36,177 nt of DNA from an uncultured Anaerolineales bacterium (lineage in GTDB: Bacteria > Chloroflexota > Anaerolineae > Anaerolineales > UBA11657). The translations under genes and the position numbers were made by a program. Within the stretch, counting starts at the first letter, position 1, and every line of letters begins with the position of its first letter. Positions 7,797-31,383 of this stretch are shown piece by piece. Under the pieces are notes generated by a model. It was not told the origin of the DNA. It ran no database searches and saw nothing but the letters and a program-made list of their open reading frames with translations. The DNA lies in assembly GCA_963934935.1 (NCBI GenBank), contig CAWWAV010000001.1:1-36177 (forward strand), in the 5' to 3' direction.

Positions 7797-7809
7797 AGAA
7801 TTTACTCTA

Positions 7810-10417: not shown

Positions 10418-10458
10418 TCGGACGCGGCGGGCTAGGCCCCTATTAAATTATTGATTTC

Positions 10459-10494
10459 ACACCTACTCAGCGTCTCGGGTAGGTGTTTTTTTTT
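10459..10494 (+). terminator. Intrinsic terminator / attenuator in the his leader
   Basis: A 10-bp stem ACACCTACTC / GGGTAGGTGT (one G-U) with the 8-nt loop AGCGTCTC, followed by 9 consecutive T. It ends 10 nt before the hisG ATG. Confidence 0.7.
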
Positions 10495-10504
10495 GGGAGA
10501 TTAT

Positions 10505-12836: not shown

Positions 12837-12852
12837 ACAATAAACACTATTT

Positions 12853-13983: not shown

Positions 13984-14040
13984 ATGAATAATTGTGTAAG
14001 TGAAAAACCACCATATAAAAGAGGTTAATGGAGGCAATTA

Positions 14041-14628
14041 ATGCGACAAGCTACTGTGAATAGGAAAACTTCTGAGACTACAATCGAGATTGCTCTAAAT
14101 ATAGAGGGTAGTGGTAAGCATAATATATCGACTGGCATAGGATTTTTAGATCATATGCTTACTCATATTGCTGTCCACGGTTTGTTTGATCTTAACATCA
14201 ATACTAAGGGTGATCTAGAGGTTGATGTGCACCATACCATAGAGGACACTGCGCTTGTGTTGGGGCAAGCCTTTGACCAGGCTTTGGGAGAACGCAAGGG
14301 GATAATGCGAATGGGAACAGCTTTTGTACCTATGGATGAGGCGTTGGCGAACGTAGTAATTGATTTGTCAGGTCGACCGTATACTGTTATGCAGGCTCAA
14401 TGGCATACCTCAACTATAGGAGCTTTACCCACTAGTTTGATCAAACACTTTTTTGAATCTTTGTCGGTTAGTATGCGAGCGAACATTCATGCAAGGGTGC
14501 TTTATGGAATTGATGATCATCATCAGGTTGAAGCGCTTTTCAAAGCTCTGGCATTAGCCCTGGATACTGCAACTCAGTTAGATGATCGAAGGATGAATAT
14601 AGTTCCCAGTACTAAAGGTAGTCTGTGA
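14041..14628 (+). CDS. hisB: Imidazoleglycerol-phosphate dehydratase (monofunctional, no phosphatase domain)
   Basis: 195 aa with [15 protein letters not shown] and [21 protein letters not shown] upstream. Confidence 0.95.
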
Positions 14629-14678
14629 CTATGGATCAGAAACTACATATATTGATTTACGAGGGGAAATAACTTATC

Positions 14679-15290
14679 TTGAAAAGTCATATTGCATTAA
14701 TTGATCATGGTGTAGGCAATCTGCGCTCAGTAGAAAAGGCTTTGGCTGCAGTTGGTGCAAATGTATCTCTGACGCGAGATCCGGATGTGATAGTTTCAGC
14801 AGATAAGCTAGTGCTGCCTGGTGTGGGGGCCTTTGGTGATTGTATGAATGGATTACGTGAGAGCGGCACTCTGGAACTTGTGCGGTCTTTGGCCGTAGAA
14901 AGACCGTTTTTAGGAATATGCGTCGGTATGCAAATGTTATTTGAAACTAGTGATGAAATGGGTAGTCATAGGGGGTTAGGTTTGCTCCCGGGATTTGTTA
15001 CTAGGTTTAAGGATAGTGACATTCGCATACCGCACACAGGATGGAATCAATTGGAGATCGCTATCGAACATCCCTTGTTGGAAGGTATATACACCGGAAG
15101 TTATGCGTACTTTAATCATAGTTATTTCTGCACACCGACTAATTTGAAAGATGTGTTGTCGTATACTGAGTATGGAGCTAAATTTTGCTCAATTATTGGC
15201 CGTGATCGTTTGTATGGGATTCAATGTCATCCTGAAAAGAGCCAAGATATTGGGTTACAGATTTTGCGTAATTTTGTAGAAAAAGGATAA
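14679..15290 (+). CDS. hisH: Imidazole glycerol phosphate synthase, glutamine amidotransferase subunit
   Basis: Motifs IALIDHGVGNL, nucleophile elbow LGICVGMQ, and CHPEKS. TTG start with GAGGGGA SD 9 nt upstream. Confidence 0.9.
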   Translation: MKSHIALIDHGVGNLRSVEKALAAVGANVSLTRDPDVIVSADKLVLPGVGAFGDCMNGLRESGTLELVRSLAVERPFLGICVGMQMLFETSDEMGSHRGLGLLPGFVTRFKDSDIRIPHTGWNQLEIAIEHPLLEGIYTGSYAYFNHSYFCTPTNLKDVLSYTEYGAKFCSIIGRDRLYGIQCHPEKSQDIGLQILRNFVEKG

Positions 15291-15295
15291 CATCG

Positions 15296-16033
15296 ATGAC
15301 AGAGTTTACAGTCTATCCGGCTATTGATTTGCGTAATGGTACAGTGGTAAGGTTGAGACAGGGAGATCCTGATCAACAAACAACGTACTCTACTGATCCG
15401 CTTAATACTGCCAAAGGTTGGGTGAATTCAGGAGCAGATTGGTTACATGTGGTGAGCTTGGATGGTGCCTTTGGCGATTCGGGTTTTGCTAACATGAAGG
15501 CTTTGGCCCAAGTAATAGAATCTGGAGCTCGAGTACAGTTTGGAGGTGGACTGCGTGATTTAGATTCGATTCAACATGTACTTGATTTGGGAGTAAGCCG
15601 GGTAGTTTTAGGAACCGTTGCAGTAACCAGTCCTCAAATTGTTGATACAGCCCTAGCTTTGTTTGGTTCAGAAAAAATTGCGATTGGTATTGATGCCCGC
15701 AATGGGGTAGTGAAAGTGAAGGGCTGGCAGGAAGAGACAACATATACAGCGGTGCAACTGGCCGAACGTTTAAAGATTCAGGGTGTAAGATGGATGGTGT
15801 TCACAGATATATCCCGTGATGGGGTTGGTACTGGTCTAAATCTAGAAGCGACTATCTCACTGGCTGACAGAACTGGATTAAACGTAATTGCTTCTGGGGG
15901 TGTGAATACATCATCGGATGTGCTCGACGCCCAATCATCTGGACTTGCTGGAGCAATAGTTGGTCGTGCACTTTATGAAGGCAGGATTGATCTTGATCAG
16001 TTGTTGGACAATGTTAGGAAAAGTAAATGTTAG
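15296..16033 (+). CDS. hisA: ProFAR isomerase (1-(5-phosphoribosyl)-5-[(5-phosphoribosylamino)methylideneamino]imidazole-4-carboxamide isomerase)
   Basis: Motifs [20 protein letters not shown] and IVGRALYEG. Confidence 0.9.
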
Positions 16034-16806
16034 CCAAACGAATTATCCCTTGTCTTGATGTAAAAGATGGTCGTGTGGTAAAGGGTGTCAACTTTGTTAA
16101 TTTGCGTGATGCAGGTGACCCAGTTGAACAAGCACGCATTTACGATCGAATGGGTGCAGACGAACTTGTATTTTTGGATATTTCTGCAACTTATCGGGGA
16201 CATCAGACAGTGATTGATATAGTTCGTTCCGTGGCCGACCAAGTATTTATGCCACTTACTGTCGGTGGTGGTATAAGGACCGTCAGTGATATGCGTGATC
16301 TTCTTCTGGCTGGTGCTGATAAGGTGAGTGTTAATTCGGCGGCGCTAGCCAATCCAGAACTGCTTGTTGATGCTTCAGAGCGTTTTGGTAGTCAATGTAT
16401 CGTCCTTGCGATTGATGCAAGGGCAACAACGAACGACGACAGTGTATTAAGTGCACAAAAATGGGAAGTATTTGTTAGTGGAGGACGTGAAAATACCGGA
16501 ATCGATGTGCTGGAATGGGCAGAGCGCGGTGTGTCTTTAGGAGCAGGTGAGATATTGCTCACGAGTATGAATACTGATGGAGTAATGGATGGTTTCGATA
16601 TGGAATTAACTCACACGGTTGCAAATCTTGTCAATGTTCCTGTGATAGCTAGTGGTGGAGCTGGAAAAACTTCGCATTTTGCTGAAATATTGGGAGACGG
16701 GTGTGCAGCGGCAGCCCTTGCTGCCTCTGTGTTTCATGACGAAATATTGACGATATCTGAAGTTAAACAATTCTTATCCGAAGCTGGTATTGCAGTGAGG
16801 TTGTAA
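16027..16806 (+). CDS. hisF: Imidazole glycerol phosphate synthase, cyclase subunit
   Basis: Motifs [31 protein letters not shown] and ASGGAG. Overlaps hisA by 7 nt. Confidence 0.95.
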
Positions 16807-17784: not shown

Positions 17785-18063
17785 ATGAGTTTTCTTTACG
17801 AACTACAGCAAATTATTGAGCAACGGAAATTGCATCCGATTGATAGCTCATATACTACTAGCTTATTTAATGCTGGTGAAGATGAAATTGCTAAGAAGAT
17901 TGGTGAGGAGGCTGTAGAGCTGATATTAGCTGTAAAAGGCCAAGGGGATGAACGTGTTGTCTCAGAAACCGCTGATCTTCTGTATCATGTAATTGTGCTA
18001 TTGGCGCAATGCGGATTGACATTAGAGTCGGTAGAAAAGGAACTGCAGCGGAGAAAGCGTTGA
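17785..18063 (+). CDS. hisE: Phosphoribosyl-ATP pyrophosphohydrolase (stand-alone)
   Basis: 92 aa MazG-like: SYTTSLF, KIGEEAVELILA and ETADLLYHVIVLL. Confidence 0.9.
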   Translation: MSFLYELQQIIEQRKLHPIDSSYTTSLFNAGEDEIAKKIGEEAVELILAVKGQGDERVVSETADLLYHVIVLLAQCGLTLESVEKELQRRKR

Positions 18064-19244
18064 GACACAATTTGTATCTTCTTGACATTGATAATGTATT
18101 GATATATCCGGGCGGTTACCGGGAATCATTTTCTCGCACAATCAATTACTTCATGCGGGCAATGGGATGGAAAGATAGTAATTCTCATCAGTCAGCAGCA
18201 CAGGTGTTCGAAGCTCATGGTATTACCAATGAATGGGATATGTGCGCTATATGCTTATCTGGATTGTTTGTAGCGGTTGCTGGGAAGATACCTGACGTAA
18301 GTTTTTCTGAATCAGTGTTAGATGCTCTAGATATAGTGAAAACATCAGGAATTCCTAGGCAGGAAGTAAATTTCTCGCAGTTAGCACGTGAAGTAGCTAC
18401 GGATATAAAACCAAGCGAGACACATTTGCCGGCATTGGCTGCTTCGCGGGTGTTCAACAGAATTATTCGTTCGACTTGTGATCCAAAAGTCCATGACCCA
18501 ATTCGTGTGCTAATAGATCATATTTTGTCGAATGCTCGAGATATAGAGAAATCACGTACCATGTCGATATTTCAGAATTATGCGCTCGGTAGTGTGAATT
18601 TCGTAAAAACATATTCAATGCCATCACTTTTTGAGACTAGTTCTTTGATCGTTGAACATGATGTTCCAGTTTTATCAAGTAGTAATTGCGAAAACTTATT
18701 GTCGGCATCACTCAAAAAAGAAATCAGACCAGTTGTATTTACTGCTCGACCATCATTGGCCCCCAGAGGAGTTCATGACGAGGCACATTATTATTCTCCT
18801 GAAGCAGAGTTGGCGGTCGAATTAGTTGGATTAGAATCAATACCAATGATAGGGTCAGGAAGGACTGAATGGTTGGCTTGGGAGACTGGGGACGACCCAA
18901 ACAGTTTTATTAAGCCTGCTCTAATACATGCTTTAGCAGCCATTGCTGCTGCAATCTCAGAGGATGAAGTGTCTGGATTAATGGCTGCTAATACGTTTCT
19001 TAAAAAAGGAATATTGAGTGGTCCTTTGTCTGATTTAGTAGGGAAAGAGTTGTTCGTAACAGTTTTTGAGGATTCGGCGCGCAGCATAGAATCTGTTGGT
19101 GAAGTCTTAGGTTTATTGCGTGATTTTGACGTTAAAAGCTCTTTATATGCTAAGGGAATTGCTGTCGATTATGAAAAACGCAAGATGTTGTCTGCGGTAG
19201 GAGCAACTTTGTTTGATGATGTGAACGTCGCTATTACAAATTGA
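18060..19244 (+). CDS. HAD-like phosphatase-fold protein with a very large cap insertion (uncharacterised); last gene of the his operon
   Basis: Motif I LLDIDNVLI at residues 7-15 from the TTG 18060 start, motif II VVFTARPS, K in FIKPALIHALA, motif IV VFEDSARSIES. About 220 aa lie between motifs I and II. TTG overlaps the hisE TGA (TTGA), with GGAG 6 nt upstream. Confidence 0.6.
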   Translation: MRHNLYLLDIDNVLIYPGGYRESFSRTINYFMRAMGWKDSNSHQSAAQVFEAHGITNEWDMCAICLSGLFVAVAGKIPDVSFSESVLDALDIVKTSGIPRQEVNFSQLAREVATDIKPSETHLPALAASRVFNRIIRSTCDPKVHDPIRVLIDHILSNARDIEKSRTMSIFQNYALGSVNFVKTYSMPSLFETSSLIVEHDVPVLSSSNCENLLSASLKKEIRPVVFTARPSLAPRGVHDEAHYYSPEAELAVELVGLESIPMIGSGRTEWLAWETGDDPNSFIKPALIHALAAIAAAISEDEVSGLMAANTFLKKGILSGPLSDLVGKELFVTVFEDSARSIESVGEVLGLLRDFDVKSSLYAKGIAVDYEKRKMLSAVGATLFDDVNVAITN

Positions 19245-19954: not shown

Positions 19955-21358
19955 ATGTCTGAGCAGCCATCTCCAAACAATAAAGTATCAACAAGTCAGG
20001 TGCGTAGCTTGGCCATAATCTGGGTCGTGTTAACAGTACTCGTTGGTGTGGGTACTTTTTTTGGTTTATTCTGGGCTTTCGGAGGTTTGGATGGTAGTGA
20101 TGCAGACACCAAGACTTCTGCTGAGGTAGTTATTGATCCGGGCTCAGCCAATGCTGTTGCGAGTGATGATGCAAAAGCAATAACAGAACCTACATCTACA
20201 GCGCAGGTTGAACTAGAACCTACATTTACTGAGTCTGCCACAGACATTCCTGTTACACCATCTCCAGAGGTTTTACCAAGTGATACACCCATAGTGGAAT
20301 CAAATGATGCTGTACCTACTGTCCAGCCTGTTGAACCGACTATTGCTGTGCCTAATCCCACTGTCACTACAGCTCCAGTTGTTGTAGCTAGCAGCGGTGG
20401 ATTTGGATTGGGTGGTCAAGTGATACATGGCGGCTTGCTAGCACTGGATAAAATGCAAGCGATGAAAATGAGTTGGGTAAAGATACAAAACTATGATCTT
20501 GCGGGTGCCACAATTGAGGGTGACATTAGTAATGCGCATAACAATGGGCTGAAGATTTTGGTAAGCATCAAAGATAATGCTAATCATTATCGTATAACCG
20601 CTCCCGACTATCAGGAGCAATTTATACAGTATCTTGAAAGAGTTGCTGCTCTAGGTGCTGATGCTATTGAGGTGTGGAATGAACCTAACCTTGATAGAGA
20701 GTGGCCCGCTGATCAGATGGGTGGTGCCAACTATACGACTTTGCTCAAGAAAGCATATCCTAGAATAAAAGCAGCCAATCCGAACACAATGGTGGTAAGT
20801 GCAGCTCTTTCTCCCACCGGCGCTTTTTCTGGTGGATGTGGTTCTATTGGATCTGTGTACGGTTGTGATGATAAACCTTTTTTGCAGGCTATGGTCAATG
20901 CAGGTGCGCTTAATTATCTTGATTGTGTGGGCATGCATTACAATGAAGGTTTGCTACCTCCAAGCGCTACCTCAGGAGATCCTCGTGGGAGCTCACAGCA
21001 CTATACACGCTATTTTAAAGGTATGTTAGACACTTATGGCGCTATCCTTGGAGGAGCACGTTCCATTTGTCTGACTGAAATAGGATATCTTAGTGGCGAA
21101 GAATGGGGATATCTGCCGTCAGCTTTTTCATGGAATCCAAGTAGTGCAATTAATATGACGGTCGCGCAACATGCAGAATATTTGGGTCAGGCAGTCTCTC
21201 TAGCCCGACAATCCGGTAACATTCGTCTGTTTATTATTTTCAATGTTGATTTTGCTATATTGAAAACGATGGAAGATGATCCACAAGCTGGATATTCTCT
21301 AATTAGACCGAATCAGAGCTGTCCAGCATGTAGTGCCATTTCTGCAGCTATGCCCTAA
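19955..21358 (+). CDS. Membrane-anchored clan GH-A (GH5-like) TIM-barrel glycoside hydrolase with a Pro/Thr/Val-rich linker
   Basis: N-terminal TM anchor (LAIIWVVLTVLVGVGTFFGLFWAF) and a roughly 100-aa low-complexity P/T/V/E linker. Catalytic-type motifs EVWNEPN (acid/base) and CLTEIGY (nucleophile). Confidence 0.65.
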   Translation: MSEQPSPNNKVSTSQVRSLAIIWVVLTVLVGVGTFFGLFWAFGGLDGSDADTKTSAEVVIDPGSANAVASDDAKAITEPTSTAQVELEPTFTESATDIPVTPSPEVLPSDTPIVESNDAVPTVQPVEPTIAVPNPTVTTAPVVVASSGGFGLGGQVIHGGLLALDKMQAMKMSWVKIQNYDLAGATIEGDISNAHNNGLKILVSIKDNANHYRITAPDYQEQFIQYLERVAALGADAIEVWNEPNLDREWPADQMGGANYTTLLKKAYPRIKAANPNTMVVSAALSPTGAFSGGCGSIGSVYGCDDKPFLQAMVNAGALNYLDCVGMHYNEGLLPPSATSGDPRGSSQHYTRYFKGMLDTYGAILGGARSICLTEIGYLSGEEWGYLPSAFSWNPSSAINMTVAQHAEYLGQAVSLARQSGNIRLFIIFNVDFAILKTMEDDPQAGYSLIRPNQSCPACSAISAAMP

Positions 21359-24691: not shown

Positions 24692-25879
24692 ATGACAAGT
24701 ATAAACAACAAGACTCCATTTGGTATGCAGGTGTTTGCTACTATAGTTGCGCGTCTGACAATTAATACAGCAGTACGCATGCTTTATCCATTCTTGCCAG
24801 CTTTTAGTCGTGGGATTGGGGTGCCAGTAGAAACACTTATTCGACTATTGTCTTTACGTTCTGCCTTGGCAATGATGGCCCCCGTTTTTGGAAGACTTTC
24901 TGATCGATATGGTAGGCGTAATATCATGGTTGCAGCCATGTTTGTGCTAACAGCCGCATTGGCCGCTATGGCATTGTGGCCTGGATATAGGATATTCGTA
25001 GTTTTTTTGTTCTTAGGTATCGTGGCACAGATTCTGTATCAGCCTGCCCATCAAGCGTATATATCGGAGCGAGTTCCATATGCACAACGAGGTCGCGTGT
25101 TAGCGATTACTGAACTAGCTTGGGCTGGTGCTATGCTAATAGGAGTGCCGCTTGTGGGTTGGATGCTTGCGCGAGCGCCTTCTCCAGAAATTGGTTTATC
25201 CCGCCCTTTCATGTTTCTATCTATTTTCGGCATTGTTTCCGTAGTAGTGTTATTGAAAACACTGTCTAACCAAAGAAATACCGTCGATAAACCTATTAAT
25301 ATGTACTCTCATTGGAAAACTGTTCTTTCCAATCGCAATGTAATTGCTGGATTGATGCTAGGTGTATTTACTGCAGGTGCAAATGAAAGCCTAAATGTGG
25401 TATTTGCTTCGTGGTTGGAGGTTACATTTGGTATGACTTTGACAGCTATAGGGTTGGCTACGGTAGTCATAGGTGTCGCTGATTTGCTTGGTGAAGGTGG
25501 TGTAATAGCATTTTCTGATAGATATGGCAAAAGACGAACGGTAGGGTGGGGAATAGGTCTAAGTGTATTGAGTTATCTGGCTCTACCTTTGTTAGGTACA
25601 AGCCAGACAGGAGCACTACTTGGATTGTTTTTAGTTTATCTTACTTTTGAATTTGCAGTTGTTGCCATATTACCATTGATGACCGAGTTGATGCCCGTGG
25701 CACGTGCTAGTGTTATGAGCGCTAACATAGCAGGACATTCGTTAGGTCGTATGCTAGGAGCTTTAATGGGAGGGTTTTTATTGCCATTTGGTATTGGAGC
25801 AAGTGGTATTGCCGCTGCTGTTCTCAATATATTAGCACTGGTGGTTTTATTGTTATGGGTCCAAGAGAACAAAAGTTAA
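24692..25879 (+). CDS. MFS transporter
   Basis: About 12 TM segments and MFS motif A GRLSDRYGRRNIM. Confidence 0.8.
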   Translation: MTSINNKTPFGMQVFATIVARLTINTAVRMLYPFLPAFSRGIGVPVETLIRLLSLRSALAMMAPVFGRLSDRYGRRNIMVAAMFVLTAALAAMALWPGYRIFVVFLFLGIVAQILYQPAHQAYISERVPYAQRGRVLAITELAWAGAMLIGVPLVGWMLARAPSPEIGLSRPFMFLSIFGIVSVVVLLKTLSNQRNTVDKPINMYSHWKTVLSNRNVIAGLMLGVFTAGANESLNVVFASWLEVTFGMTLTAIGLATVVIGVADLLGEGGVIAFSDRYGKRRTVGWGIGLSVLSYLALPLLGTSQTGALLGLFLVYLTFEFAVVAILPLMTELMPVARASVMSANIAGHSLGRMLGALMGGFLLPFGIGASGIAAAVLNILALVVLLLWVQENKS

Positions 25880-25927: not shown

Positions 25928-27721
25928 CTAATAGAAGGTTGTACGTAAAACAGGTTGAAACATGTTTTTTAGATGATTGCATATTGGGTCAATCGGACAA
26001 AATTCACATATAGGCTCTGTCATTTCAGGACAACTATTACGTGCATTAAAAAAGAAGTAGTCTACAGCACCTTCACTTTTGCCTGATAGTTTGACTATTT
26101 GTTCCCTGGCACGATAAGCAGCATATCTCACCGCCCATTCCTCAGAAGCTGATACAAGCCTTCTGCTAGTTAGTTTCACTCTTAGTTGCTCATCAAGCAC
26201 ATTTATCAGTCCAACACGTAAACATAATCGCATGGCATGATAATCTATTACTGGATCTACTTGTTCATGCTCCTGTATAGTGAGGAACTGCTCTGGTCGT
26301 TGATTCAGTATCAGAGCTAGCAATCCGCTTTTTTTGCGCAATGGATCCTCTTTATATCCCCCAATATTATCTAAAAGTTCTAGGAAGGTTTGTAGCGGGT
26401 TGACGGATTTGCTAACGTTCTCAATTATATAATCTGGGGTCAATCCAAGCGAGAGCATATCTTTACCATACCTTCGTGATTCTTCTAGATGTAATTCTAG
26501 TGCAGGCATTGGGTTGTTTCCATTATCATCTCTGAGGATTTCCGTGAATTCGTTTGCACTCAAATTAGCTTGTCTTTCTGGAGAACAGAAATCCGCATCT
26601 TTTTCTAAAGCTAGCCTAAATGATTCCCATAAGTAATCGGATCCTTTGCGCATAGTGCCGCCCAATGGTGCTAGCAGTGGTTGGTCGTATTTTTGATCAT
26701 GTGTAGACCAAAAGCTAAACTGATGAACTGTGGCTGCAAAGAAATAGTCTAATGTTTTGGGATGATCAATCGGGGGTAGTACTGGGCTCACAAATTGGAA
26801 AGGTGATACTTCTGATAATGAAGCAATCTTGTCAGCAACCTTTTGTATTTGTGTGTTGTTGAGATTGACACGCATATCGAGTGGTGCTTCCAAAGGTGGT
26901 TTGTCAGAGAAAAGTGCTTTGGGGCCGATATCTTTGATCATAGCGGTCGATGTGACAACTGCTTGTCGTGCTGCCATGATAGGATGTTTGTTTTGAAGCA
27001 AGTAAGCTAGAGTGGCTCCGCAAAAAGTGTCACCTGCACCTGTTGGATCTATCTCTGTAGTTGAATTGGTAGGAATAAATGTGGCATGAGAGCCTTGAAT
27101 GATGCAAGCACCATCTGCGCCTAAAGTGATATAAAGCACTTTCCCAATTTGTGTTGTGGCAGACTTTATAGAGCCAAAAATGTATTCAGCCTCATATGAA
27201 TTCATGAAAAAATAATCGCTATGTTTAATCACATCTTTGACTGCTTGTGTTTGTTCCTTTGCATTAAACAAACCTGTGCCAGCGGAAATACGCTTGACAC
27301 CTTTCTCTCGGCAGGCCCTAATAAAGGACAATTGATTTACTGCGTTGCCTAATGGGGTCACGTGTACTATAGAAAAATTTGACATGTCTCTAGGCAACAT
27401 TTCAGATGAAAGATTGTCTTCGGAGTTGAGAGACATAGTTAGATATTCGGTTTTATTATTTCGATATGAAATTTCAAATTCTGGAAGTTGGTCTGCAGGG
27501 ACAACTGGACCAATCCAATCGGATAAATAATCATCAACTATAGTTAAGTGTTCGGGATATGCGTTTGGACGTGGACCAAATAACGTTGCATCTGCACCGC
27601 AATGAGTTGCTGCGACAGCAGTATACATTCCAGCTCCTCCTGCACATTGGGCAGTATCATCTTGGAGGTGCAGGATGTCAGATGAAGCTCCACCGACAAC
27701 CAGTAATTTGTTGTTATGCAC
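25928..27721 (-). CDS. Fusion protein: N-terminal PfkB (ribokinase-family) kinase plus a C-terminal Qng1/DUF2419-like (queuosine-salvage family) domain with a Cys4 cluster
   Basis: N-terminal domain has GGAGMY and DPTGAGDTFCGA (PfkB signature). C-terminal domain has HQFSFWS, VIDYHAMRLCLRVGLI, VDYFFFN and terminal RTTFY, resembling recalled Qng1 motifs NFSFWS, ADYRLPQVL, LDYYLW and RCIYY. CPEMTEPICEFCPIDPIC gives C-x7-C-x2-C-x5-C. GTG start. Confidence 0.7.
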   Translation of the reverse strand: MHNNKLLVVGGASSDILHLQDDTAQCAGGAGMYTAVAATHCGADATLFGPRPNAYPEHLTIVDDYLSDWIGPVVPADQLPEFEISYRNNKTEYLTMSLNSEDNLSSEMLPRDMSNFSIVHVTPLGNAVNQLSFIRACREKGVKRISAGTGLFNAKEQTQAVKDVIKHSDYFFMNSYEAEYIFGSIKSATTQIGKVLYITLGADGACIIQGSHATFIPTNSTTEIDPTGAGDTFCGATLAYLLQNKHPIMAARQAVVTSTAMIKDIGPKALFSDKPPLEAPLDMRVNLNNTQIQKVADKIASLSEVSPFQFVSPVLPPIDHPKTLDYFFAATVHQFSFWSTHDQKYDQPLLAPLGGTMRKGSDYLWESFRLALEKDADFCSPERQANLSANEFTEILRDDNGNNPMPALELHLEESRRYGKDMLSLGLTPDYIIENVSKSVNPLQTFLELLDNIGGYKEDPLRKKSGLLALILNQRPEQFLTIQEHEQVDPVIDYHAMRLCLRVGLINVLDEQLRVKLTSRRLVSASEEWAVRYAAYRAREQIVKLSGKSEGAVDYFFFNARNSCPEMTEPICEFCPIDPICNHLKNMFQPVLRTTFY

Positions 27722-27810
27722 TATTGCTATTTATTCAAAAATAACTGATTGCGAGTAAGGCACTGTTTTGATCATTGAGTGCAAAGTATTTAGTATTGTT
27801 ACTCCGGGAG

Positions 27811-27883
27811 TGAGCCGCACAGGACTCGAACCTGTAACCAAGGGCTTAAAAGGCCCCTGCTCTGCCAATTGAGCTAGCGGCCC
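27811..27883 (-). tRNA. tRNA-Lys (anticodon UUU)
   Basis: The reverse complement folds as a 73-nt cloverleaf: acceptor GGGCCGC/GCGGCTC, D arm GCTC-AATTGGCA-GAGC, anticodon arm GGGGC-CTTTTAA-GCCCT, T arm ACAGG-TTCGAGT-CCTGT, discriminator A. CCA is not encoded. Confidence 0.9.
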
Positions 27884-27900
27884 GGGTATGTATGATTCTA

Positions 27901-28395
27901 TCATTCTGAGTTGACAGGGTCAACGACTGTAGGTTGCTGTTCTTCAATGTTTGGGCTGTATCGTTGTGCGTAGAGCAATACGCCAATTGCAATAAAAACT
28001 AATCCCGATATAAGACCTACTGATTGCCAAAGTCCAAAGTAGGGTAGTCCGCTTGGTATATTGTGACTGCCTATTCCTAATACATCTGCAAGACCAGATA
28101 CGGCACAGATCACATATCCTGTCGCCATAAGTCTTAGCCCGATTTCCTCGCGGAGACGTCGCGGCATTGACCTATGCCTAGTTTCATATGCATATGCATA
28201 TCCACCTATAGTCATCATACCGATACCAAATAGGATGACTACTAATTGAAGTATTCCAACCCCAGGATTTAGATCTAGATTAATTATTACCGGAAACATT
28301 CCTATTAGGAAAATGGTAAATCCGAACACTACTGTTGCTACACTTATGCGCGCAAATTGACTAAGTTCAGCAATTGCAACTGGTTTTCGGTTCAT
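27901..28395 (-). CDS. Small 4-TM membrane protein (uncharacterised), translationally coupled to the dipeptidase
   Basis: Four hydrophobic segments. ATG 28395 forms an ATGA overlap with the dipeptidase stop; the ORF-track start at 28410 is the alternative. Confidence 0.55.
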   Translation of the reverse strand: MNRKPVAIAELSQFARISVATVVFGFTIFLIGMFPVIINLDLNPGVGILQLVVILFGIGMMTIGGYAYAYETRHRSMPRRLREEIGLRLMATGYVICAVSGLADVLGIGSHNIPSGLPYFGLWQSVGLISGLVFIAIGVLLYAQRYSPNIEEQQPTVVDPVNSE

Positions 28396-29468
28396 GTTGG
28401 TATTCCACATCTGAGAACTTGCAACCAGTTCTCGGACATAAAGCTTGTCACCTCTTGTCTATTGTATCCAAGTGTTGCAATTTCATCACCAATCAATACT
28501 AAATCTGCTATAGTGTTCATCGGAAATGGTATTGATTCAGCACCAAAACCGCCATCAAAATCAGAACCTATACCAACATGTTGACAGGATCCAGTCAGTT
28601 GGCATATATAGTCAATCATTTCCGCTAATCTTCTGATAGGCACGGTTTTTTTGTCATCGCTTTTATTCCAACCAGTCTTCAGGAATTTGTTGTATGGGAC
28701 CACTCCTATGACACCGTCCCTTTCTACAAGTTTGCGGATTTGTAAATCAGTTAGTAAACGTTCTGGTGTGCTTAGGTTTGCAGCAAATCGTGGGTTTGCA
28801 TGAGATGCTATTACAACTCCATCATAGTTTTCAATAGCTTGATCAAAACTACGTTCAGACATGTGACTTACGTCAAGAATCATTTGGAGATCTGCCATAT
28901 TTTCTAACAATTCTTCACCTAAATTAGTCAATGGTCCTGGATCACCAGTGCCTCCACAGTAATTTGTTCCTGCCCAAGCTGGTCCTATTATACGCACGCC
29001 ATTTTTGTGCCAATACTCTACTTCTCCTGGTGATCTTATTGGATCTGCTCCTTCCATTAGTAAGACCAGACCGATTACAGGCTTTCTATTATTAGTTTCA
29101 TCCCAACTAGTGATAACAAACTCTAGTTCTGAGAGATTGCGAATGATTTGGAAGTCGTCTTTTTCTTCCATATGTAGGTAGTACTCTAGTTGATTGTGAG
29201 CTAGTTTATGAGCCTGATCGGAGTTTTGATAATACATTTTTTCAGAGTCGCCTGAGTAGTGACTATAAGGAGGGGAAAATAGAGTGGCAAATATTATTCC
29301 TACGTGGCCTGATAGCCACTCATCATGACCAAGACATGCCAAACCGTTTGCATGCATATTTGGACTATTGCTTTCAGCACTTCGTATATTGAGTGCCGAG
29401 GTAGAATAGTCTCTGTTATATCTCAGAGCATTGTACGCTATGTCTTCGTGTGCATCTACTATAAGCAT
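28392..29468 (-). CDS. Membrane dipeptidase, peptidase family M19
   Basis: Motifs IVDAHEDIAYN, VLLMEGADP, LDVSHMSERSF, ASHANPR and HVGIGSDFDGGFG. Confidence 0.82.
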   Translation of the reverse strand: MLIVDAHEDIAYNALRYNRDYSTSALNIRSAESNSPNMHANGLACLGHDEWLSGHVGIIFATLFSPPYSHYSGDSEKMYYQNSDQAHKLAHNQLEYYLHMEEKDDFQIIRNLSELEFVITSWDETNNRKPVIGLVLLMEGADPIRSPGEVEYWHKNGVRIIGPAWAGTNYCGGTGDPGPLTNLGEELLENMADLQMILDVSHMSERSFDQAIENYDGVVIASHANPRFAANLSTPERLLTDLQIRKLVERDGVIGVVPYNKFLKTGWNKSDDKKTVPIRRLAEMIDYICQLTGSCQHVGIGSDFDGGFGAESIPFPMNTIADLVLIGDEIATLGYNRQEVTSFMSENWLQVLRCGIPT

Positions 29469-29514
29469 GATCTAATCGTATATATAAGCTGCTTGGTTGT
29501 CAATTGTAACAGAG

Positions 29515-29523
29515 TGCTATAAT
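29515..29523 (+). promoter_or_regulatory. Extended -10 element TGcTATAAT upstream of the large membrane protein gene
   Basis: TG-c-TATAAT at 29515-29523, ending 9 nt before ATG 29533. Possible -35 elements are TTGTCA (29497-29502, 15-nt spacer) or TTGGTT (29494-29499, 18-nt spacer). Confidence 0.35.
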
Positions 29524-29532
29524 CGCACGATA

Positions 29533-31383
29533 ATGTCTGTTCTCAGTGTTATGTTTGCGTCCTGTGTTATTTTTGTAACACCGGGTATATTGATTCACTT
29601 GTCTCTAAAAGAGAGGGGTTATCATCTAGTCCCTTGTATTGGAATTGGTTTGTCACTGGTAGTTGTACTGTTTTCTACAGTTGCCAGTGTGGTCGGTTAT
29701 TCATACTATTTGCAATTGGGTATAACTATAGGATTGGATATAGTATTGTTGTTTCTTGCTCGGCACCAAATAAGTAATATTAAATCTTGGACGAATAGAT
29801 TAGTCAGTTGGCAATGGTTATTGTTGGCTCTTGTAGGCTTAGTTTATCTTGGGCCGGCATTTGTTATTCCAGTTCCATTTGATACTGACGCGCAAGGTTT
29901 TGGATTATTGATTGCTAGTGTGCGAGCCAGTGGTTCTATCACCAGTTTGGCACCCTTTTATCCTGAAATTGGTTGGTATTACTCGCCCGCATTTTTCCTA
30001 ATAGGTGCTCAATTAGCTGATATCACAGCTGCTGGAATACATGAAGTAATGCTGGGTTTTTCACATTTGCTTAGCGTGGGTGTGATAGCATCTATTGGTT
30101 ACTTAGGAATGCTCATGGGTGGCCGTAAAACTGGTTGGTGGGCTGGAGTTGCATCTGCAATAGGATTGTCTCTCTATACAACTCTGATGGATGCTGCTTA
30201 TACTAATCTGCTTGGGCTTTGGTTGACTGCCACGTTTCTTTGGATACTCGATAAGGTTATAAGAAATAAATCAGGTTTTGATTTAGTGATTGCGGGTGGA
30301 TGCTTATCTGCTGTACTTCTTGGGCATCCTGATAGCATCATACATTTAGTTCTGGCTTATTTCTGTTTCTATATTACTGTTGTCTTTGTAAGACCTAAGT
30401 TGAGTATCAAGGAATATGTGCGAATAATGATTCTTGTGCCGGTGCTTGGAGTAGTCATTAGCGCGCCTTGGCTATTAAGTACTTTTTCTATGTTAGGGCA
30501 AATCAGCGTGCATGAACGTCAGTCACCGCAGTTGCACCATCTTTTGTGGGTGTTAACTGTCAATGGTGGAGTGATACCACTTTTTGCATTAATTGGTATT
30601 TGGTGGTCAGTACGCAGTCGTCATTGGTTAGACATATGGTCCATATCATGGCTTGTTCCCATTGTAGAAATATCGAGTTTAGGTAATTTGGATGCACTGT
30701 CTCGTCGTACATTGATTGACCCGATGCAGATTTTCTATCCTTTTGGCATGGCCTGGCACGCTACTATAATTCCTCTTGCTTTGTTGGCAGCACGTGGTTT
30801 AGAGCCGCTAGGTGATTGGATCGCAGGCAAGAAAGTTTGGAAAGAGTGGCTTACTGGTTCTCTCTCAATTATGTTGTTGTTAACTGGACTTGCATTAATT
30901 ATGAGCAAATCTGTTGTATCCTGGACAAGGGCATATGTGCCGCAAATCACTGGTGCGGTGGCAACTTCCGCTGATGTCAGTGCTTATAAGTGGTTGAGCG
31001 ATAATTCCCCATCAGACTCTAAGGTGTTAAACTATCCTGGGCGTTATGAAGGTCAATGGGCAACAGTAATATCTGAGCGCACATCTGTTTATATTCGTGA
31101 CCAGTTATTTTATATAGGATCAGAAGATTTGCGAAATTTGCAGAAAAATATGGCAGTGGCTTTTCTTGACCCTGTGTCTGATGAGGCCTATGATTTGATT
31201 AGTAGACATGAGATTGACTACATTGTGGTTCCACAGTGGCTGAATGTTTCTAACATTGATCAAACACAATTGCGCTGGAAGGAGCCCGATAAGTTACCGC
31301 AAGTCACTTCGTTTGAAGACGCAAGTTACTTGGATTTAGCTGCAAACTTTGATGGTGCTCAAGTGTGGAGAGTGAAATACTAG
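29533..31383 (+). CDS. Large polytopic membrane protein with a C-terminal extracytoplasmic domain, GT-C-like glycosyltransferase candidate
   Basis: At least 12 predicted TM segments, a loop DxD (PFDTDAQGFG) and a roughly 150-aa soluble C-terminus. ATG 29533 is preferred to the ORF-track TTG at 29497, which overlaps the promoter-like element. The family call is weak. Confidence 0.55.
   Translation: MSVLSVMFASCVIFVTPGILIHLSLKERGYHLVPCIGIGLSLVVVLFSTVASVVGYSYYLQLGITIGLDIVLLFLARHQISNIKSWTNRLVSWQWLLLALVGLVYLGPAFVIPVPFDTDAQGFGLLIASVRASGSITSLAPFYPEIGWYYSPAFFLIGAQLADITAAGIHEVMLGFSHLLSVGVIASIGYLGMLMGGRKTGWWAGVASAIGLSLYTTLMDAAYTNLLGLWLTATFLWILDKVIRNKSGFDLVIAGGCLSAVLLGHPDSIIHLVLAYFCFYITVVFVRPKLSIKEYVRIMILVPVLGVVISAPWLLSTFSMLGQISVHERQSPQLHHLLWVLTVNGGVIPLFALIGIWWSVRSRHWLDIWSISWLVPIVEISSLGNLDALSRRTLIDPMQIFYPFGMAWHATIIPLALLAARGLEPLGDWIAGKKVWKEWLTGSLSIMLLLTGLALIMSKSVVSWTRAYVPQITGAVATSADVSAYKWLSDNSPSDSKVLNYPGRYEGQWATVISERTSVYIRDQLFYIGSEDLRNLQKNMAVAFLDPVSDEAYDLISRHEIDYIVVPQWLNVSNIDQTQLRWKEPDKLPQVTSFEDASYLDLAANFDGAQVWRVKY

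What the first reader, a model, noticed from the sequence alone, without database searches (positions are those of the whole stretch)
25928..27721. PfkB kinase fused to a Qng1/DUF2419-like domain with an added Cys4 cluster: possible one-polypeptide queuosine salvage route
Seen in sequence:
- Residues 1 to about 275 carry PfkB hallmarks (GGAGMY; DPTGAGDTFCGA).
- Residues about 300-597 carry HQFSFWS, VIDYHAMRLCLRVGLI, VDYFFFN and a terminal RTTFY.
- The tail holds CPEMTEPICEFCPIDPIC, which is C564-x7-C572-x2-C575-x5-C581 (nt 25979-26032).

Established knowledge, from memory:
- Eukaryotic Qng1 (C9orf64, Pfam Q_salvage/DUF2419) contains NFSFWS, ADYRLPQVL and LDYYLW and ends in RCIYY.
- Qng1 releases queuine from queuosine-5'-monophosphate, not from the free nucleoside.
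- Endo III/MutY-type glycosylases bind a 4Fe-4S cluster through C-x6-C-x2-C-x5-C.

Inference: a ribokinase-family kinase fused to a Qng1-like hydrolase would supply the phosphorylation step (queuosine to Q-5'-MP). That step is needed before glycosidic cleavage when the nucleoside is imported. The Cys cluster would add a metal or Fe-S site that I do not recall in Qng1. I do not know whether this domain architecture has been described.
Basis: partly seen in the sequence, partly recalled or inferred. Interest (0 to 1): 0.7.

Follow-up and report, generated by a model that had tools for sequence, protein, structure and literature searches.

The report
Kinase fused to iron-sulfur Qng1-like glycosidase
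This gene encodes one protein that joins a sugar/nucleoside kinase to a distant, probably iron-sulfur-bearing relative of the queuosine-salvage enzyme Qng1; it most likely phosphorylates a guanine-like nucleoside and then splits off its base, and it belongs to a widespread, unstudied family that databases label only as "carbohydrate kinase".

Summary
**Observation: confirmed.** The 597-aa ORF (25928-27721, minus strand) and every motif sit at the stated coordinates.

- **N-terminal half:** residues 1-275 form a catalytically complete PfkB kinase.
- **C-terminal half:** residues 286-597 are a Qng1-fold domain. Profile-profile probability to canonical Qng1 is 99.4%. The 11 best PDB fold matches are all Qng1 (TM 0.77-0.80).
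- **Cys cluster:** the Cx7Cx2Cx5C motif is near-invariant across the family. All four Cys align with the endonuclease III [4Fe-4S] loop. Canonical Qng1 lacks it.

**Interpretation: partly supported.**

- **Supported:** the kinase-then-nucleotide-glycosidase logic.
  - The catalytic Lys/Asp, the ribose- and base-edge contacts and the terminal Tyr are kept.
  - The Qng1-like domain is always C-terminal.
  - A second fusion partner is GTP cyclohydrolase II.
  - PsuK-PsuG fusions are a precedent.
- **Not supported:** queuosine as the substrate.
  - The proton relay D69/N72/D207 and pocket residue Y93 are invariant in canonical Qng1, and W94 also lines the pocket. All five are replaced (T331/Q334/I471, S361/D362).
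  - No Q genes or riboswitches are nearby.
  - None of 120 canonical Qng1 homologues carries a kinase.

The fusion occurs in more than eight phyla, all as MAGs, and I found no description of it in the literature. I rate it a new variant of a known kind, with moderately high interest.

The parts
25928..27721 (-). Whole gene: 597-aa bifunctional protein (GTG start at 27721; stop codon 25928-25930)
   Evidence: The homologues are 594-625 aa long and start and end at matching positions.
26897..27721 (-). PfkB (ribokinase-like) kinase domain, residues 1-275
   Evidence: Pfam PF00294 at 1.8e-19. AF2 plus Foldseek give TM up to 0.75-0.76 to the C. tepidum nucleoside kinase 3kd6. The A1 profile hits 3kd6 at 2.6e-11.
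27635..27640 (-). GG dipeptide (G28-G29) of the PfkB substrate-lid hinge
   Evidence: Invariant in A1. Aligns with G41-G42 of E. coli RbsK; that sequence was recalled from memory.
27191..27202 (-). NxxE motif (N174-S-Y-E177), the Mg/phosphate site of PfkB kinases
   Evidence: N174 and E177 are invariant in A1. They align with RbsK N187/E190.
27029..27049 (-). DPTGAGD (225-231): anion hole and catalytic base D231
   Evidence: D225, G228, A229 and G230 are invariant and D231 is at least 90% conserved. D231 aligns with the RbsK catalytic D255.
25931..26866 (-). Qng1-like (DUF2419/Q_salvage fold, HhH-glycosylase type) domain, residues 286-597
   Evidence: AF2 pLDDT 98. The top 11 Foldseek hits are all Qng1, TM 0.77-0.80. 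hhalign to canonical Qng1 gives 99.4%.
26705..26725 (-). HQFSFWS (333-339). F337 equals the StQng1 ribose-stacking F75. Q334 replaces the general-acid N72. T331, just upstream, replaces D69.
   Evidence: residue roles from PMC9881137.
26636..26647 (-). KGSD (359-362), the family signature. S361/D362 replace Y93/W94 of the queuine cyclopentenediol pocket.
   Evidence: Frequencies in A2: K 42/59, G 56/59, S 42/59, D 39/59. The alignment runs gap-free into the following helix.
26330..26335 (-). K463-K464, which equal the HhH-motif K199-R200 of StQng1
   Evidence: K463 is present in 55 of 59 and K464 in 53 of 59. Alignment.
26237..26245 (-). D493-Y494-H495. They equal the catalytic D231, the ribose-stacking Y232, and K233 (a phosphate ligand, here His).
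   Evidence: D 56/59, Y 52/59, H 56/59. Alignment.
26048..26062 (-). D554-YFF-F558. D554 equals D298, which reads the guanine-type N1/N2 edge. F558 equals the base-stacking W302.
   Evidence: D 52/59; W or F 54/59. Alignment.
25979..26032 (-). C564-x7-C572-x2-C575-x5-C581: probable [4Fe-4S] cluster loop. Relative to canonical Qng1, about 18 extra residues follow P570, between it and the FQPVLRTTFY tail.
   Evidence: The Cys are present in 57-58 of 59 members. The tail profile matches only endonuclease III Fe-S loops, with all four Cys aligned, but at E 0.2-0.6, so this is weak on its own. The A2 profile hits ROS1 at 3e-4 across the catalytic Asp and the cluster. Canonical Qng1 has no Cys here.
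25931..25945 (-). RTTFY-COOH. The terminal Tyr equals StQng1 Y323, whose free carboxylate is part of the active site.
   Evidence: Y is the last residue in 52 of 59 members and in 78 of 92 full-length representatives. The canonical tail is HRTRTIFY. Role from PMC9881137.

Best explanation
**Proposed function.** The protein is a self-contained, two-step nucleoside-processing enzyme.

- **Step 1 (inferred).** The N-terminal PfkB domain uses ATP to phosphorylate the 5'-OH of an imported or turnover-derived ribonucleoside.
- **Step 2 (inferred from homology).** The C-terminal Qng1-fold domain hydrolyses the N-glycosidic bond of the resulting nucleoside 5'-monophosphate. This releases the free base and ribose-5-phosphate.
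  - The HhH-type pair K463/D493 would do the chemistry.
  - F337 and Y494 would hold the ribose.
  - D554 and F558 would hold a guanine-type or 7-deazaguanine-type base.
  - The free carboxylate of the last residue, Y597, would close the site.
- **Cys cluster (inferred).** A Cys4 loop homologous to the endonuclease III/MutY [4Fe-4S] loop probably carries an Fe-S cluster. Its likely role is to buttress the C-terminal tail that forms part of the active site.
- **Substrate.** The base is probably not queuine, or at least is not bound as in Qng1. The queuine side-chain pocket and proton relay are replaced by a smaller, more polar KGSD-lined site.
  - Candidates are guanosine-like modified nucleosides.
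  - They include small 7-substituted 7-deazaguanosines, which purine nucleoside phosphorylase should not be able to cleave. That last point rests on PNP mechanism as I recall it from memory.

**What is shown and what is inferred.** Shown: the domain identities, the conserved residues, the fusion architecture and its distribution. Inferred: the order of the two steps, the substrate class and the metal.
For: **Kinase domain looks active**
- The GG, NxxE and DxxGAGD motifs are present and conserved.
- Three of the six best PDB profile matches are nucleoside kinases: 3kd6, 3b1n/3b1r and 2c49.
- It is not an equivalog of any characterised sugar kinase. Ribokinase TIGR02152 scores 48 bits against a cut-off of 299.65.
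- The ribose-specific RbsK residues K43, N46 and E143 are not kept.

**Glycosidase domain is a Qng1 relative**
- hhalign gives 99.4%. Foldseek gives TM 0.77-0.80 to Qng1, against 0.5 or less to MutY, AGOG and EndoIII.
- The catalytic, ribose-contact and base-edge residues are conserved.
- Characterised Qng1 prefers the 5'-monophosphate and needs its free C-terminus (PMC9881137).

**Architecture fits the mechanism**
- In all fusions the Qng1-like domain is C-terminal and ends on the terminal Tyr.
- A second partner, GTP cyclohydrolase II, is also N-terminal. It also produces a ribosyl-5'-phosphate compound from a guanine nucleotide.

**Precedent**
- The PfkB pseudouridine kinase PsuK is fused to the pseudouridine-monophosphate glycosidase PsuG in metazoa, amoebozoa and fungi (PMC9247573).

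**Gene context**
- In two Promineifilaceae contigs the gene sits in a nucleoside island. The island holds a nucleoside:H+ symporter, a nucleoside hydrolase, ADP-ribosylglycohydrolase-family genes, further PfkB kinases and an EamA transporter.
- Elsewhere the gene has no conserved partner, which fits a self-sufficient enzyme.
Against: - No biochemical data exist for any member.
- The Qng1 phosphate ligands are not conserved as such. K233 becomes H495 and Q306 becomes N562. R80 has no clear equivalent.
  - Conserved basic residues K359, R498 and R561 may substitute for them.
  - So a 5'-phosphate site is plausible but not shown.
- StQng1 itself prefers the nucleotide over the nucleoside by only 1.7-fold, so the order of steps is not forced.
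- The nucleoside-kinase assignment rests on weak similarity (17-22% identity).
- Many family members are stand-alone, with no kinase within 8 kb in the loci examined. The kinase is therefore not obligatory for the domain's function.
- Fe-S rather than Zn cannot be decided from sequence. The cluster-loop match to EndoIII has E of only 0.2-0.6.
Confidence: 0.55

Rival explanations
1. **The first reader's reading.** The substrate is queuosine itself. The kinase makes Q-5'-MP and the Qng1-like domain releases queuine for a queuine-type TGT. This would be a one-polypeptide Q salvage route, and the PfkB domain would be the missing queuosine kinase.
For: - Qng1 is the closest characterised relative by both sequence and fold.
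- The guanine-edge Asp, the stacking aromatic, the catalytic pair and the terminal Tyr are all kept.
- The kinase that makes Q-5'-MP is explicitly unidentified in the literature (PMC9881137).
- W48 of the pocket is kept as an aromatic residue, F310.
- MFS transporters often neighbour Q-salvage genes (PMC11130926). An MFS gene lies next to this gene in the window and in L009.
Against: - The Q-specific residues are all replaced. D69, N72, D207 and Y93 are invariant in 30 canonical Qng1, and W94 lines the same pocket. Here they are T331, Q334, I471, S361 and D362. The replacements are themselves conserved as a different signature.
- No tgt or que genes appear among the Pfam-annotated genes of the window or of five further fusion loci. 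No preQ1 riboswitch was found.
- None of the 120 closest StQng1 relatives is fused to a kinase. Two canonical loci have no PfkB neighbour.
- The MFS genes are convergent with this gene, only 31% identical to each other, and not conserved across 45 loci.
Confidence: 0.17
2. **Reverse order.** The Qng1-like domain hydrolyses a nucleoside to base plus ribose. The PfkB domain then acts as a ribokinase-like sugar kinase that traps the ribose as ribose-5-phosphate.
For: - StQng1 also cleaves the free nucleoside; its preference for the nucleotide is only 1.7-fold.
- The best NCBIfam match by score is ribokinase.
- The Qng1 phosphate ligands are not conserved as such.
- Databases call the protein 'ribokinase'.
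Against: - The ribokinase equivalog model scores 48 bits against a cut-off of 299.65.
- The ribose-binding residues K43, N46 and E143 of RbsK are A30, Y33 and a non-acidic residue here (RbsK sequence from memory).
- The best structural and profile matches include nucleoside kinases.
- The GTP cyclohydrolase II fusion points to phosphorylated substrates for the C-terminal domain.
Confidence: 0.13
3. **DNA or RNA repair.** The C-terminal domain is a nucleic-acid glycosylase: a base-excision enzyme of the Fe-S HhH type, like EndoIII, MutY or AGOG. The kinase is an unrelated or regulatory passenger.
For: - The domain has the HhH Lys/Asp pair and an EndoIII-like Cys4 loop.
- Many Arg and Lys residues are conserved.
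- Three of 59 family members hit Pfam AGOG and one hits EndIII_4Fe-2S.
- DNA-repair genes lie nearby in some loci: uvrD in the window, O6-methylguanine-DNA methyltransferase-type DNA-binding-domain genes (PF01035) in L001, and uvrB in L004.
Against: - The fold match to DNA glycosylases is far weaker (TM 0.5 or less) than to Qng1 (0.77-0.80).
- The Qng1-specific terminal-Tyr closure is conserved. Qng1 does not act on tRNA.
- As far as I know, PfkB kinases act on small molecules only. Both fusion partners are small-molecule nucleotide enzymes.
- The repair-gene neighbours are not conserved.
Confidence: 0.06

Closest known systems
[quoted passage not shown]
   Same: - Same two-lobe HhH-type fold: TM 0.77-0.80 and hhalign 99.4%.
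- Same catalytic Lys/Asp pair with similar spacing: K463/D493 against K199/D231.
- Same ribose-stacking Phe and Tyr.
- Same Asp reading the guanine N1/N2 edge, and a stacking aromatic.
- The protein ends on a conserved Tyr within an R-T-x-x-Y tail.
   Different: - Only 14-16% identity.
- The Q side-chain relay D69/N72/D207 and the pocket residues Y93/W94 are replaced.
- K233 becomes His.
- About 18 extra residues after P570, with C564 just upstream of them, form a Cx7Cx2Cx5C site. Qng1 has no such site and is metal-independent.
- This protein is fused to a kinase, whereas the 120 closest StQng1 relatives are stand-alone.
Endonuclease III / MutY / ROS1-type HhH Fe-S DNA glycosylases
   Same: - A C-terminal Cys4 loop with the same order and nearly the same spacing.
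- The flanking Arg and Pro are also shared. E. coli EndoIII reads R-x-x-C-x6-C-x2-C-x5-C and aligns Cys for Cys.
- The profile reaches ROS1 at 3e-4 across the catalytic Asp and the cluster.
- The HhH Lys/Asp chemistry is shared.
   Different: - One extra residue lies between the first two Cys.
- Fold similarity is only TM 0.4-0.5.
- There is no Pfam HhH-GPD match.
- The active site is closed by the C-terminal tail, as in Qng1.
- The fusion partners are small-molecule enzymes.
PsuK-PsuG (pseudouridine kinase plus pseudouridine-5'-phosphate glycosidase), fused as PsuKG in metazoa, amoebozoa and fungi (PMC9247573)
   Same: - Same pathway logic and the same kinase superfamily. A PfkB kinase makes the 5'-monophosphate of a modified nucleoside, and a dedicated glycosidase splits it into base plus ribose-5-phosphate.
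- The two activities are joined in one polypeptide.
   Different: - The glycosidase is an unrelated fold: PsuG/YeiN against an HhH Qng1-like domain.
- The domain order is reversed. PsuG is N-terminal in PsuKG, whereas here the glycosidase must be C-terminal.
- The bond cleaved differs: C-glycosidic there, N-glycosidic here.
- The substrate here is unknown.
PfkB-family nucleoside kinases (C. tepidum 3kd6, B. thailandensis BthNK 3b1n-r, M. jannaschii MjNK 2c49)
   Same: - They are among the best profile and fold matches for residues 1-275: E 2.6e-11 to 1.7e-8 and TM up to 0.76.
- All the PfkB catalytic motifs are shared.
   Different: - Identity is only 18-22%.
- The domain is short (about 275 aa).
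- No NCBIfam equivalog threshold is reached.
- Substrate-contact residues could not be compared.

Membership tests
PfkB / ribokinase-like kinase superfamily (PF00294) | Profile HMM score above the Pfam gathering threshold | tested here: met
   70.6 bits against 25.8, E 1.8e-19.
PfkB / ribokinase-like kinase superfamily (PF00294) | Catalytic motifs: N-terminal GG, NxxE, and DxxGAGD with the catalytic Asp | tested here: met
   G28-G29, N174/E177 and D225...G228-A229-G230-D231 are all invariant or at least 90% conserved in 34 homologues. They align with the RbsK equivalents.
PfkB / ribokinase-like kinase superfamily (PF00294) | Ribokinase-like alpha/beta fold with a beta-sheet lid | tested here: met
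   AF2 model plus Foldseek give probability 1.0 and TM(target) 0.63-0.76 to many PfkB structures.
Ribokinase RbsK (NCBIfam TIGR02152 equivalog) | Score at or above the equivalog cut-off, with ribose ligands K43/N46/E143 | tested here: not met
   48 bits against 299.65. K43 becomes A30, N46 becomes Y33, and E143 is not acidic (RbsK sequence recalled from memory).
Qng1 / Q_salvage (PF10343) | Profile HMM score above the gathering threshold | tested here: inconclusive
   25.7 bits against a cut-off of 25, covering the N-lobe only (profile positions 7-107 of 285). Of 59 family members, 46 match, with a best E of 2.3e-17. hhalign to canonical Qng1 gives 99.4%.
Qng1 / Q_salvage (PF10343) | Qng1 fold (two-lobe HhH architecture with Qng1-specific insertions) | tested here: met
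   The model has pLDDT 98. The top 11 PDB matches are all Qng1, TM 0.77-0.80 and rmsd 2.7-4.0. The next class, MutY, has TM about 0.5.
Qng1 / Q_salvage (PF10343) | HhH catalytic Lys and Asp (K199, D231), ribose-stacking F75/Y232, base-edge D298 with stacking W302 | tested here: met
   K463, D493, F337, Y494, D554 and F558. Each is conserved in 51-56 of 59 members.
Qng1 / Q_salvage (PF10343) | Protein ends on a conserved Tyr whose carboxylate completes the active site | tested here: met
   Y597 is the last residue. Tyr is terminal in 52 of 59 members and in 78 of 92 representatives. Participation in the active site could not be tested.
Qng1 / Q_salvage (PF10343) | Queuine-specific proton relay D69-N72-D207 | tested here: not met
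   T331, Q334 and I471 occupy these positions. All three residues are invariant in 30 canonical Qng1.
Qng1 / Q_salvage (PF10343) | Hydrophobic cyclopentenediol pocket (W48, H53, Y93, W94, W299) | tested here: not met
   Y93/W94 become S361/D362. H53 becomes L314. W299 becomes a variable position. Only W48 stays aromatic, as F310.
Qng1 / Q_salvage (PF10343) | 5'-phosphate ligands R80, K233, Q306 | tested here: inconclusive
   K233 becomes H495 (56 of 59). Q306 becomes N562, which is mostly R or K in the family. R80 has no clear equivalent. K359, R498 and R561 are conserved instead.
Qng1 / Q_salvage (PF10343) | Hydrolysis of Q-5'-MP to queuine; metal independence | not testable with these tools
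   This needs an enzyme assay. The conserved Cys4 site argues against metal independence.
EndoIII/MutY-type Fe-S HhH-GPD DNA glycosylases | C-terminal Cx6Cx2Cx5C [4Fe-4S] loop | tested here: inconclusive
   The motif here is Cx7Cx2Cx5C. All four Cys, plus the flanking R and P, align with E. coli, B. stearothermophilus and D. radiodurans EndoIII, but at E 0.2-0.6. Pfam EndIII_4Fe-2S is hit by 1 of 59 members. Metal content is not testable here.
EndoIII/MutY-type Fe-S HhH-GPD DNA glycosylases | HhH-GPD domain profile match and fold | tested here: not met
   There is no PF00730 hit. Foldseek TM is 0.4-0.5.

The most novel reading that the evidence does not exclude
**The reading.** The PfkB domain is a dedicated 5'-kinase for queuosine or another 7-deazaguanine nucleoside. 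That would be the first example of the 'unidentified kinase' step of Q salvage.

**What else it would mean.**
- The C-terminal domain would represent an ancestral, [4Fe-4S]-bearing form of Qng1.
- That form would link Qng1 evolutionarily to the EndoIII/MutY DNA glycosylases.
- Together the two domains would define a route for recycling 7-deazapurine nucleosides that does not depend on purine nucleoside phosphorylase.
- The route would be widespread in uncultured marine and sediment bacteria.
Probability: 0.2. Interest if true: 0.8.

Novelty: new variant of a known kind. Interest (0 to 1): 0.62.

Why it matters
- **A candidate for a missing step.**
  - Qng1 needs the 5'-monophosphate, and the kinase that makes it is unknown (PMC9881137).
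  - A natural kinase-to-Qng1-like fusion is a concrete, clonable candidate for that type of step.
  - It also gives a template for finding the stand-alone kinases.
- **An evolutionary link.** A conserved EndoIII-type Cys4 loop in a Qng1-fold protein would tie a nucleotide hydrolase to the Fe-S DNA glycosylases. It would also be the first metallo-Qng1.
- **A hidden activity at scale.**
  - The family has more than 1,000 database sequences, and the fusion occurs in more than eight phyla.
  - All members seen come from uncultured organisms. They are annotated only as 'PfkB carbohydrate kinase', 'ribokinase' or 'queuosine salvage family protein'.
  - A whole catalytic activity in environmental nucleoside recycling is therefore hidden or possibly mislabelled.
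- **A caution for annotation.** The replaced specificity pocket warns against transferring the 'queuosine salvage' name to this branch.

Tried and rejected
1. **Gene neighbourhood as a guide to substrate.**
   - I clustered the ORFs of 45 fusion loci from more than eight phyla.
   - No neighbour was conserved beyond within-phylum synteny. The most frequent family, about 290 aa and probably an SDR, appears in 7 of 45 loci.
   - Stand-alone members are equally uninformative.
   - Only L009 and L011 show a nucleoside island.
2. **Riboswitch or RNA regulator upstream.** Rfam at gathering thresholds, run on the window and five loci, found only a tRNA.
3. **Anti-phage defence role.** There was no PADLOC match, and the context is housekeeping.
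4. **Split-gene versions.**
   - Stand-alone orthologues of the kinase domain (34-42% identity; L057-L068, L075) have no Qng1-like gene within 10 kb.
   - Genuinely stand-alone Qng1-like genes have no such kinase nearby.
   - The 'stand-alone' L008 copy is a frameshifted fusion.
5. **Kinase linkage for canonical Qng1.** There were no fusions among 120 homologues and no PfkB neighbour in two loci.
6. **Foldseek on the full-length model.** PfkB hits swamped the result. The C-terminal domain had to be modelled on its own.
7. **Literature.**
   - Full-text searches for Qng1/DUF2419 with kinase, fusion, PfkB or ribokinase found no description of this architecture.
   - Zallot et al. 2014 is not held in the library.
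8. **Whole-genome test for tgt and queCDEF.** This was not possible.
9. **Fe-S versus Zn geometry.** This could not be measured because model coordinates are not exposed.

Full report
**1.

The window has an uninterrupted 597-codon ORF on the minus strand, 25928-27721, with a GTG start. The protein ends ...RTTFY, followed by the stop codon.

- The gene's G+C content (41.1%) matches the window's (41.9%).
- The identical protein is on record in the sequence collection, on two contigs, one of them a TARA Oceans scaffold. Its 90%-identity cluster has 108 members.
- It is therefore a real, conserved gene of a marine bacterium.
- Its closest relatives that carry a taxonomic name are Chloroflexota/Anaerolineae MAGs.

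**2. The N-terminal half is a PfkB kinase**

- Pfam PfkB scores 70.6 bits against a cut-off of 25.8.
- The catalytic set is complete and conserved in 34 full-length homologues:
  - the GG dipeptide, G28-G29;
  - the NxxE motif, N174/E177;
  - D225-P-T-G-A-G-D231, with the catalytic Asp.
- A full-length AlphaFold model (pLDDT 80) matches many PfkB structures. The best TM, 0.75-0.76, is to the Chlorobium tepidum nucleoside kinase 3kd6.
- With the family profile, three of the six best PDB matches are nucleoside kinases: 3kd6, BthNK 3b1n/r and MjNK 2c49.
- No NCBIfam equivalog threshold is approached. Ribokinase scores 48 bits against 299.65.
- In an alignment to E. coli RbsK, the ribose ligands K43, N46 and E143 are not kept. 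I recalled that sequence from memory, and its numbering reproduces the published N14/D16/G41-G42/K43/N46/E143/D255.

The domain therefore looks like an active PfkB kinase. It is not a ribokinase, and its substrate is undefined. A nucleoside is the leading candidate.

**3. The C-terminal half is a Qng1-fold domain**

The Pfam Q_salvage hit is marginal: 25.7 bits against 25, N-lobe only. Deeper tests settle the relationship.

- A full scan of 1.84 billion representatives with residues 286-597 found 430 clusters at E of 0.001 or better.
- Of the 149 representatives returned, 19 are 500 aa or longer and 68 are stand-alone proteins of 295-375 aa.
- A profile of 59 of them (A2) hits human QNG1 at 1.3e-17 and Sphaerobacter thermophilus Qng1 at 1.4e-15, over almost the whole domain.
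- hhalign against 30 canonical bacterial Qng1 gives 99.4% probability, E 1.6e-21, over 283 columns at 16% identity.
- With A2 as its alignment, the domain models at pLDDT 98.
- The 11 best PDB fold matches are all Qng1 (TM 0.77-0.80). A gap then follows to MutY/MUTYH, AGOG and EndoIII (TM 0.4-0.5).
- Of the 59 A2 members, 46 match Pfam Q_salvage, three match AGOG and one matches EndIII_4Fe-2S.

**4. What is kept from Qng1 and what is not**

Residue roles come from the StQng1 and human structures (PMC9881137). Conservation counts are out of 59 family members.

| StQng1 residue | Role | Here | Conservation or status |
|---|---|---|---|
| K199 | HhH catalytic Lys | K463 | 55/59 |
| D231 | catalytic Asp | D493 | 56/59 |
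| F75 | ribose stacking | F337 | 51/59 |
| Y232 | ribose stacking | Y494 | 52/59 |
| I203 | base sandwich | L467 | 50/59 |
| W302 | base sandwich | F558 | W or F in 54/59 |
| D298 | reads the guanine N1/N2 edge | D554 | 52/59 |
| Y323 | C-terminal Tyr; its carboxylate completes the site | Y597 | last residue in 52/59 |
| D69, N72, D207 | proton relay to the queuine secondary amine | T331, Q334, I471 | replaced |
| Y93, W94 | walls of the cyclopentenediol pocket | S361, D362 (KGSD motif) | replaced |
| H53 | pocket | L314 | replaced |
| W299 | pocket | variable position | not conserved |
| K233 | phosphate ligand | H495 | 56/59 |

- D69, N72, Y93 and D207 are invariant in 30 canonical Qng1.
- A Trp that canonical Qng1 lacks (W365) appears one helical turn later.
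- The catalytic machinery and the guanine-type base edge are therefore conserved.
- The queuine-specific part of the site has been rebuilt as a different, conserved, more polar signature.

**5. The Cys4 site**

- The four Cys are invariant in the fusion subfamily and present in 57-58 of the 59 A2 members.
- Among 92 full-length representatives, 73 have a Cys4 motif in the last 70 residues. In 63 of them the spacing is exactly Cx7Cx2Cx5C.
- Canonical Qng1 has no Cys here. Its tail runs ...LPxxxxPYHRTRTIFY.
- The family instead has C564 just before that stretch, plus about 18 extra residues after P570 that carry C572, C575 and C581, ahead of FQPVLRTTFY.
- A profile of the tail alone finds, in the whole PDB, only endonuclease III Fe-S cluster loops.
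  - All four Cys and the flanking Arg and Pro align.
  - For E. coli the alignment is LILHGRYTCI-ARKPRCGSCIIEDLC.
  - The E-values are 0.2-0.6, so this is not significant alone.
- The whole-domain profile reaches ROS1 at 3e-4, across the catalytic Asp and the cluster.

I read this as a homologous [4Fe-4S] loop that this branch retained and canonical Qng1 lost. The metal itself is an inference.

**6. Architecture and distribution**

- Full-length fusions (38-61% identity) occur in MAGs assigned to many groups:
  - Chloroflexota (Anaerolineae, Promineifilaceae, Thermoflexales);
  - Marinimicrobia;
  - Gemmatimonadota, including complete Ca. Palauibacter chromosomes;
  - Acidobacteria;
  - Myxococcales and Deltaproteobacteria;
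  - Gammaproteobacteria;
  - Acidimicrobiia;
  - Spirochaetaceae.
- None came from a cultured strain in that list.
- In every fusion the Qng1-like domain is C-terminal and the protein ends with it. This is what the Qng1 mechanism requires, because a C-terminal His-tag inactivates StQng1.
- A second, rarer partner exists. P0218/P0365 carries an N-terminal GTP cyclohydrolase II domain (4.5e-38) in front of the same Fe-S Qng1-like domain.
  - Its 90%-identity cluster has six members, drawn from several data sources, on contigs up to 248 kb long.
- Both partners generate ribosyl-5'-phosphate small molecules. This supports a nucleotide-type substrate related to guanine.

**7. Gene context**

- The window is a housekeeping chromosomal region. 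It contains:
  - uppS and cdsA;
  - glpX;
  - rho;
  - a his operon;
  - uvrD;
  - an epimerase;
  - glycosyltransferases.
- No tgt or que gene was detected in it.
- A tRNA-Lys(UUU) gene lies 88 nt upstream on the same strand.
- An MFS_1 transporter gene converges on the 3' end.
  - A 31%-identical MFS gene is in the same position in L009.
  - It is not conserved elsewhere.
- Clustering the ORFs of 45 fusion loci found no common neighbour.
- Two Promineifilaceae contigs are the exception. There the gene sits in a nucleoside island containing:
  - a nucleoside:H+ symporter;
  - IU-type nucleoside hydrolase;
  - ADP-ribosylglycohydrolase-family genes;
  - three to five further PfkB kinases;
  - an EamA transporter;
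  - 5-FTHF cyclo-ligase.
- The island resembles E. coli yegTUV; that comparison is from memory.
- No riboswitch and no defence-system signal were found.

**8. Mechanism proposed**

A PfkB kinase makes a nucleoside 5'-monophosphate. The Qng1-like domain then hydrolyses it to base plus ribose-5-phosphate.

- The same logic, with a PfkB kinase, is established for pseudouridine (PsuK/PsuG). There the two enzymes are also fused in metazoa, amoebozoa and fungi (PMC9247573).
- The base is probably guanine-like, because D554 and the stacking pair are kept. The 7-side environment is small and polar.
- 7-deazaguanine nucleosides are attractive candidates. Purine nucleoside phosphorylase needs N7, so it should not cleave them. 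This is established enzymology as I recall it, and an inference here.
- Queuosine itself is not excluded, but the evidence does not favour it:
  - the pocket differs;
  - there is no Q-gene context;
  - the 120 closest relatives of the characterised StQng1 carry no kinase;
  - two canonical Qng1 loci have no PfkB neighbour.

**9. Rivals**

- *Reverse order* (nucleoside hydrolase, then sugar kinase): weakened by the non-ribokinase active site and by the GTP cyclohydrolase II fusion.
- *DNA/RNA glycosylase*: weakened by the much better Qng1 fold match, the terminal-Tyr closure and the small-molecule fusion partners.
- Neither rival is excluded without assays.

**10. Novelty and verdict**

- Databases name the fusions 'PfkB family carbohydrate kinase' or 'ribokinase'. 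They name stand-alone members 'queuosine salvage family protein'.
- Full-text searches found no description of the fusion, or of an Fe-S Qng1 branch.
- The Qng1 structure paper states that the kinase making Q-5'-MP is unidentified.
- I classify the finding as a new variant of a known kind.
  - The Qng1-type nucleotide glycosidase and the kinase-plus-glycosidase logic are both known.
  - The Fe-S loop, the rebuilt specificity pocket and the bacterial PfkB fusion are new.
The queuosine-specific interpretation is only partly supported.

Noticed in passing
window 27810-27883 (-), with a promoter-like site at 27895-27923 (-): A tRNA-Lys(UUU) gene lies 88 nt upstream of the fusion gene on the same strand. 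A TTGACC-17-TAGAAT site (10 of 12 matches, with an extended TG) precedes it. The tRNA and the fusion gene might share a transcript. The number of promoter-like sites in the region is no higher than in shuffled sequence.
   Followed up: partly
P0218/P0365; L093 8001-9665, L094 4159-5823: A GTP cyclohydrolase II domain (PF00925, 4.5e-38) is fused N-terminally to the same Fe-S Qng1-like domain, whose tail ends ...DWY. Its 90%-identity cluster has six members from several data sources. A TrmB-family (PF02390) methyltransferase-domain protein, a GT2 and a PIG-L gene lie downstream. The function is unknown.
   Followed up: partly
L009 1-15205 and L011 3030-13805: These are two Promineifilaceae contigs from one sample. 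Each carries a nucleoside-utilisation island around the fusion gene, and the island resembles E. coli yegTUV. Between them the islands hold a Nuc_H_symport gene (L009 only), IU_nuc_hydro, ADP_ribosyl_GH, two to four extra PfkB kinases within the quoted ranges, EamA, 5-FTHF cyclo-ligase, MFS_1 and an SDR.
   Followed up: partly
window 24692-25879 (+): An MFS_1 transporter gene converges on the 3' end of the fusion gene, with a 48-bp gap. A 31%-identical MFS gene holds the same position in L009. It is not conserved in the other loci.
   Followed up: partly
L057 9334-10834; also L058-L065, L067, L068, L075: Stand-alone orthologues of the kinase domain alone (34-42% identity over residues 1-272) occur in Chloroflexota, Obscuribacterales/Cyanobacteria and a Roseobacter MAG. 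None has a Qng1-like gene within 10 kb. In L057 the kinase is divergent from a 5-FTHF cyclo-ligase gene, as in L009 and L011. In L065 an NCS1 purine/cytosine permease lies about 800 bp downstream.
   Followed up: partly
L008 7917-9014: The apparently stand-alone Qng1-like protein P0314 has a remnant of the kinase C-terminus (residues 233-285, 57% identity) directly upstream. It is therefore probably a frameshifted fusion on an error-prone contig.
   Followed up: yes
window 10451-16806 (+): A compact histidine biosynthesis operon: hisG (long form with HisG_C), hisD, hisC, hisB (IGPD), hisH, hisA and hisF.
   Followed up: no
window 7188-9064 (+): A histidine-phosphatase gene, a DUF3090 gene and an ORF with a weak HipA_2-like kinase match lie in a row. 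The function is unknown.
   Followed up: no
window 18009-19244, 19955-21358, 27901-28410, 29497-31383: Four sizeable ORFs have no Pfam match. The translations of the 169-aa and 628-aa ORFs look hydrophobic and membrane-like. The 169-aa ORF overlaps the 3' end of the M19 dipeptidase gene.
   Followed up: no
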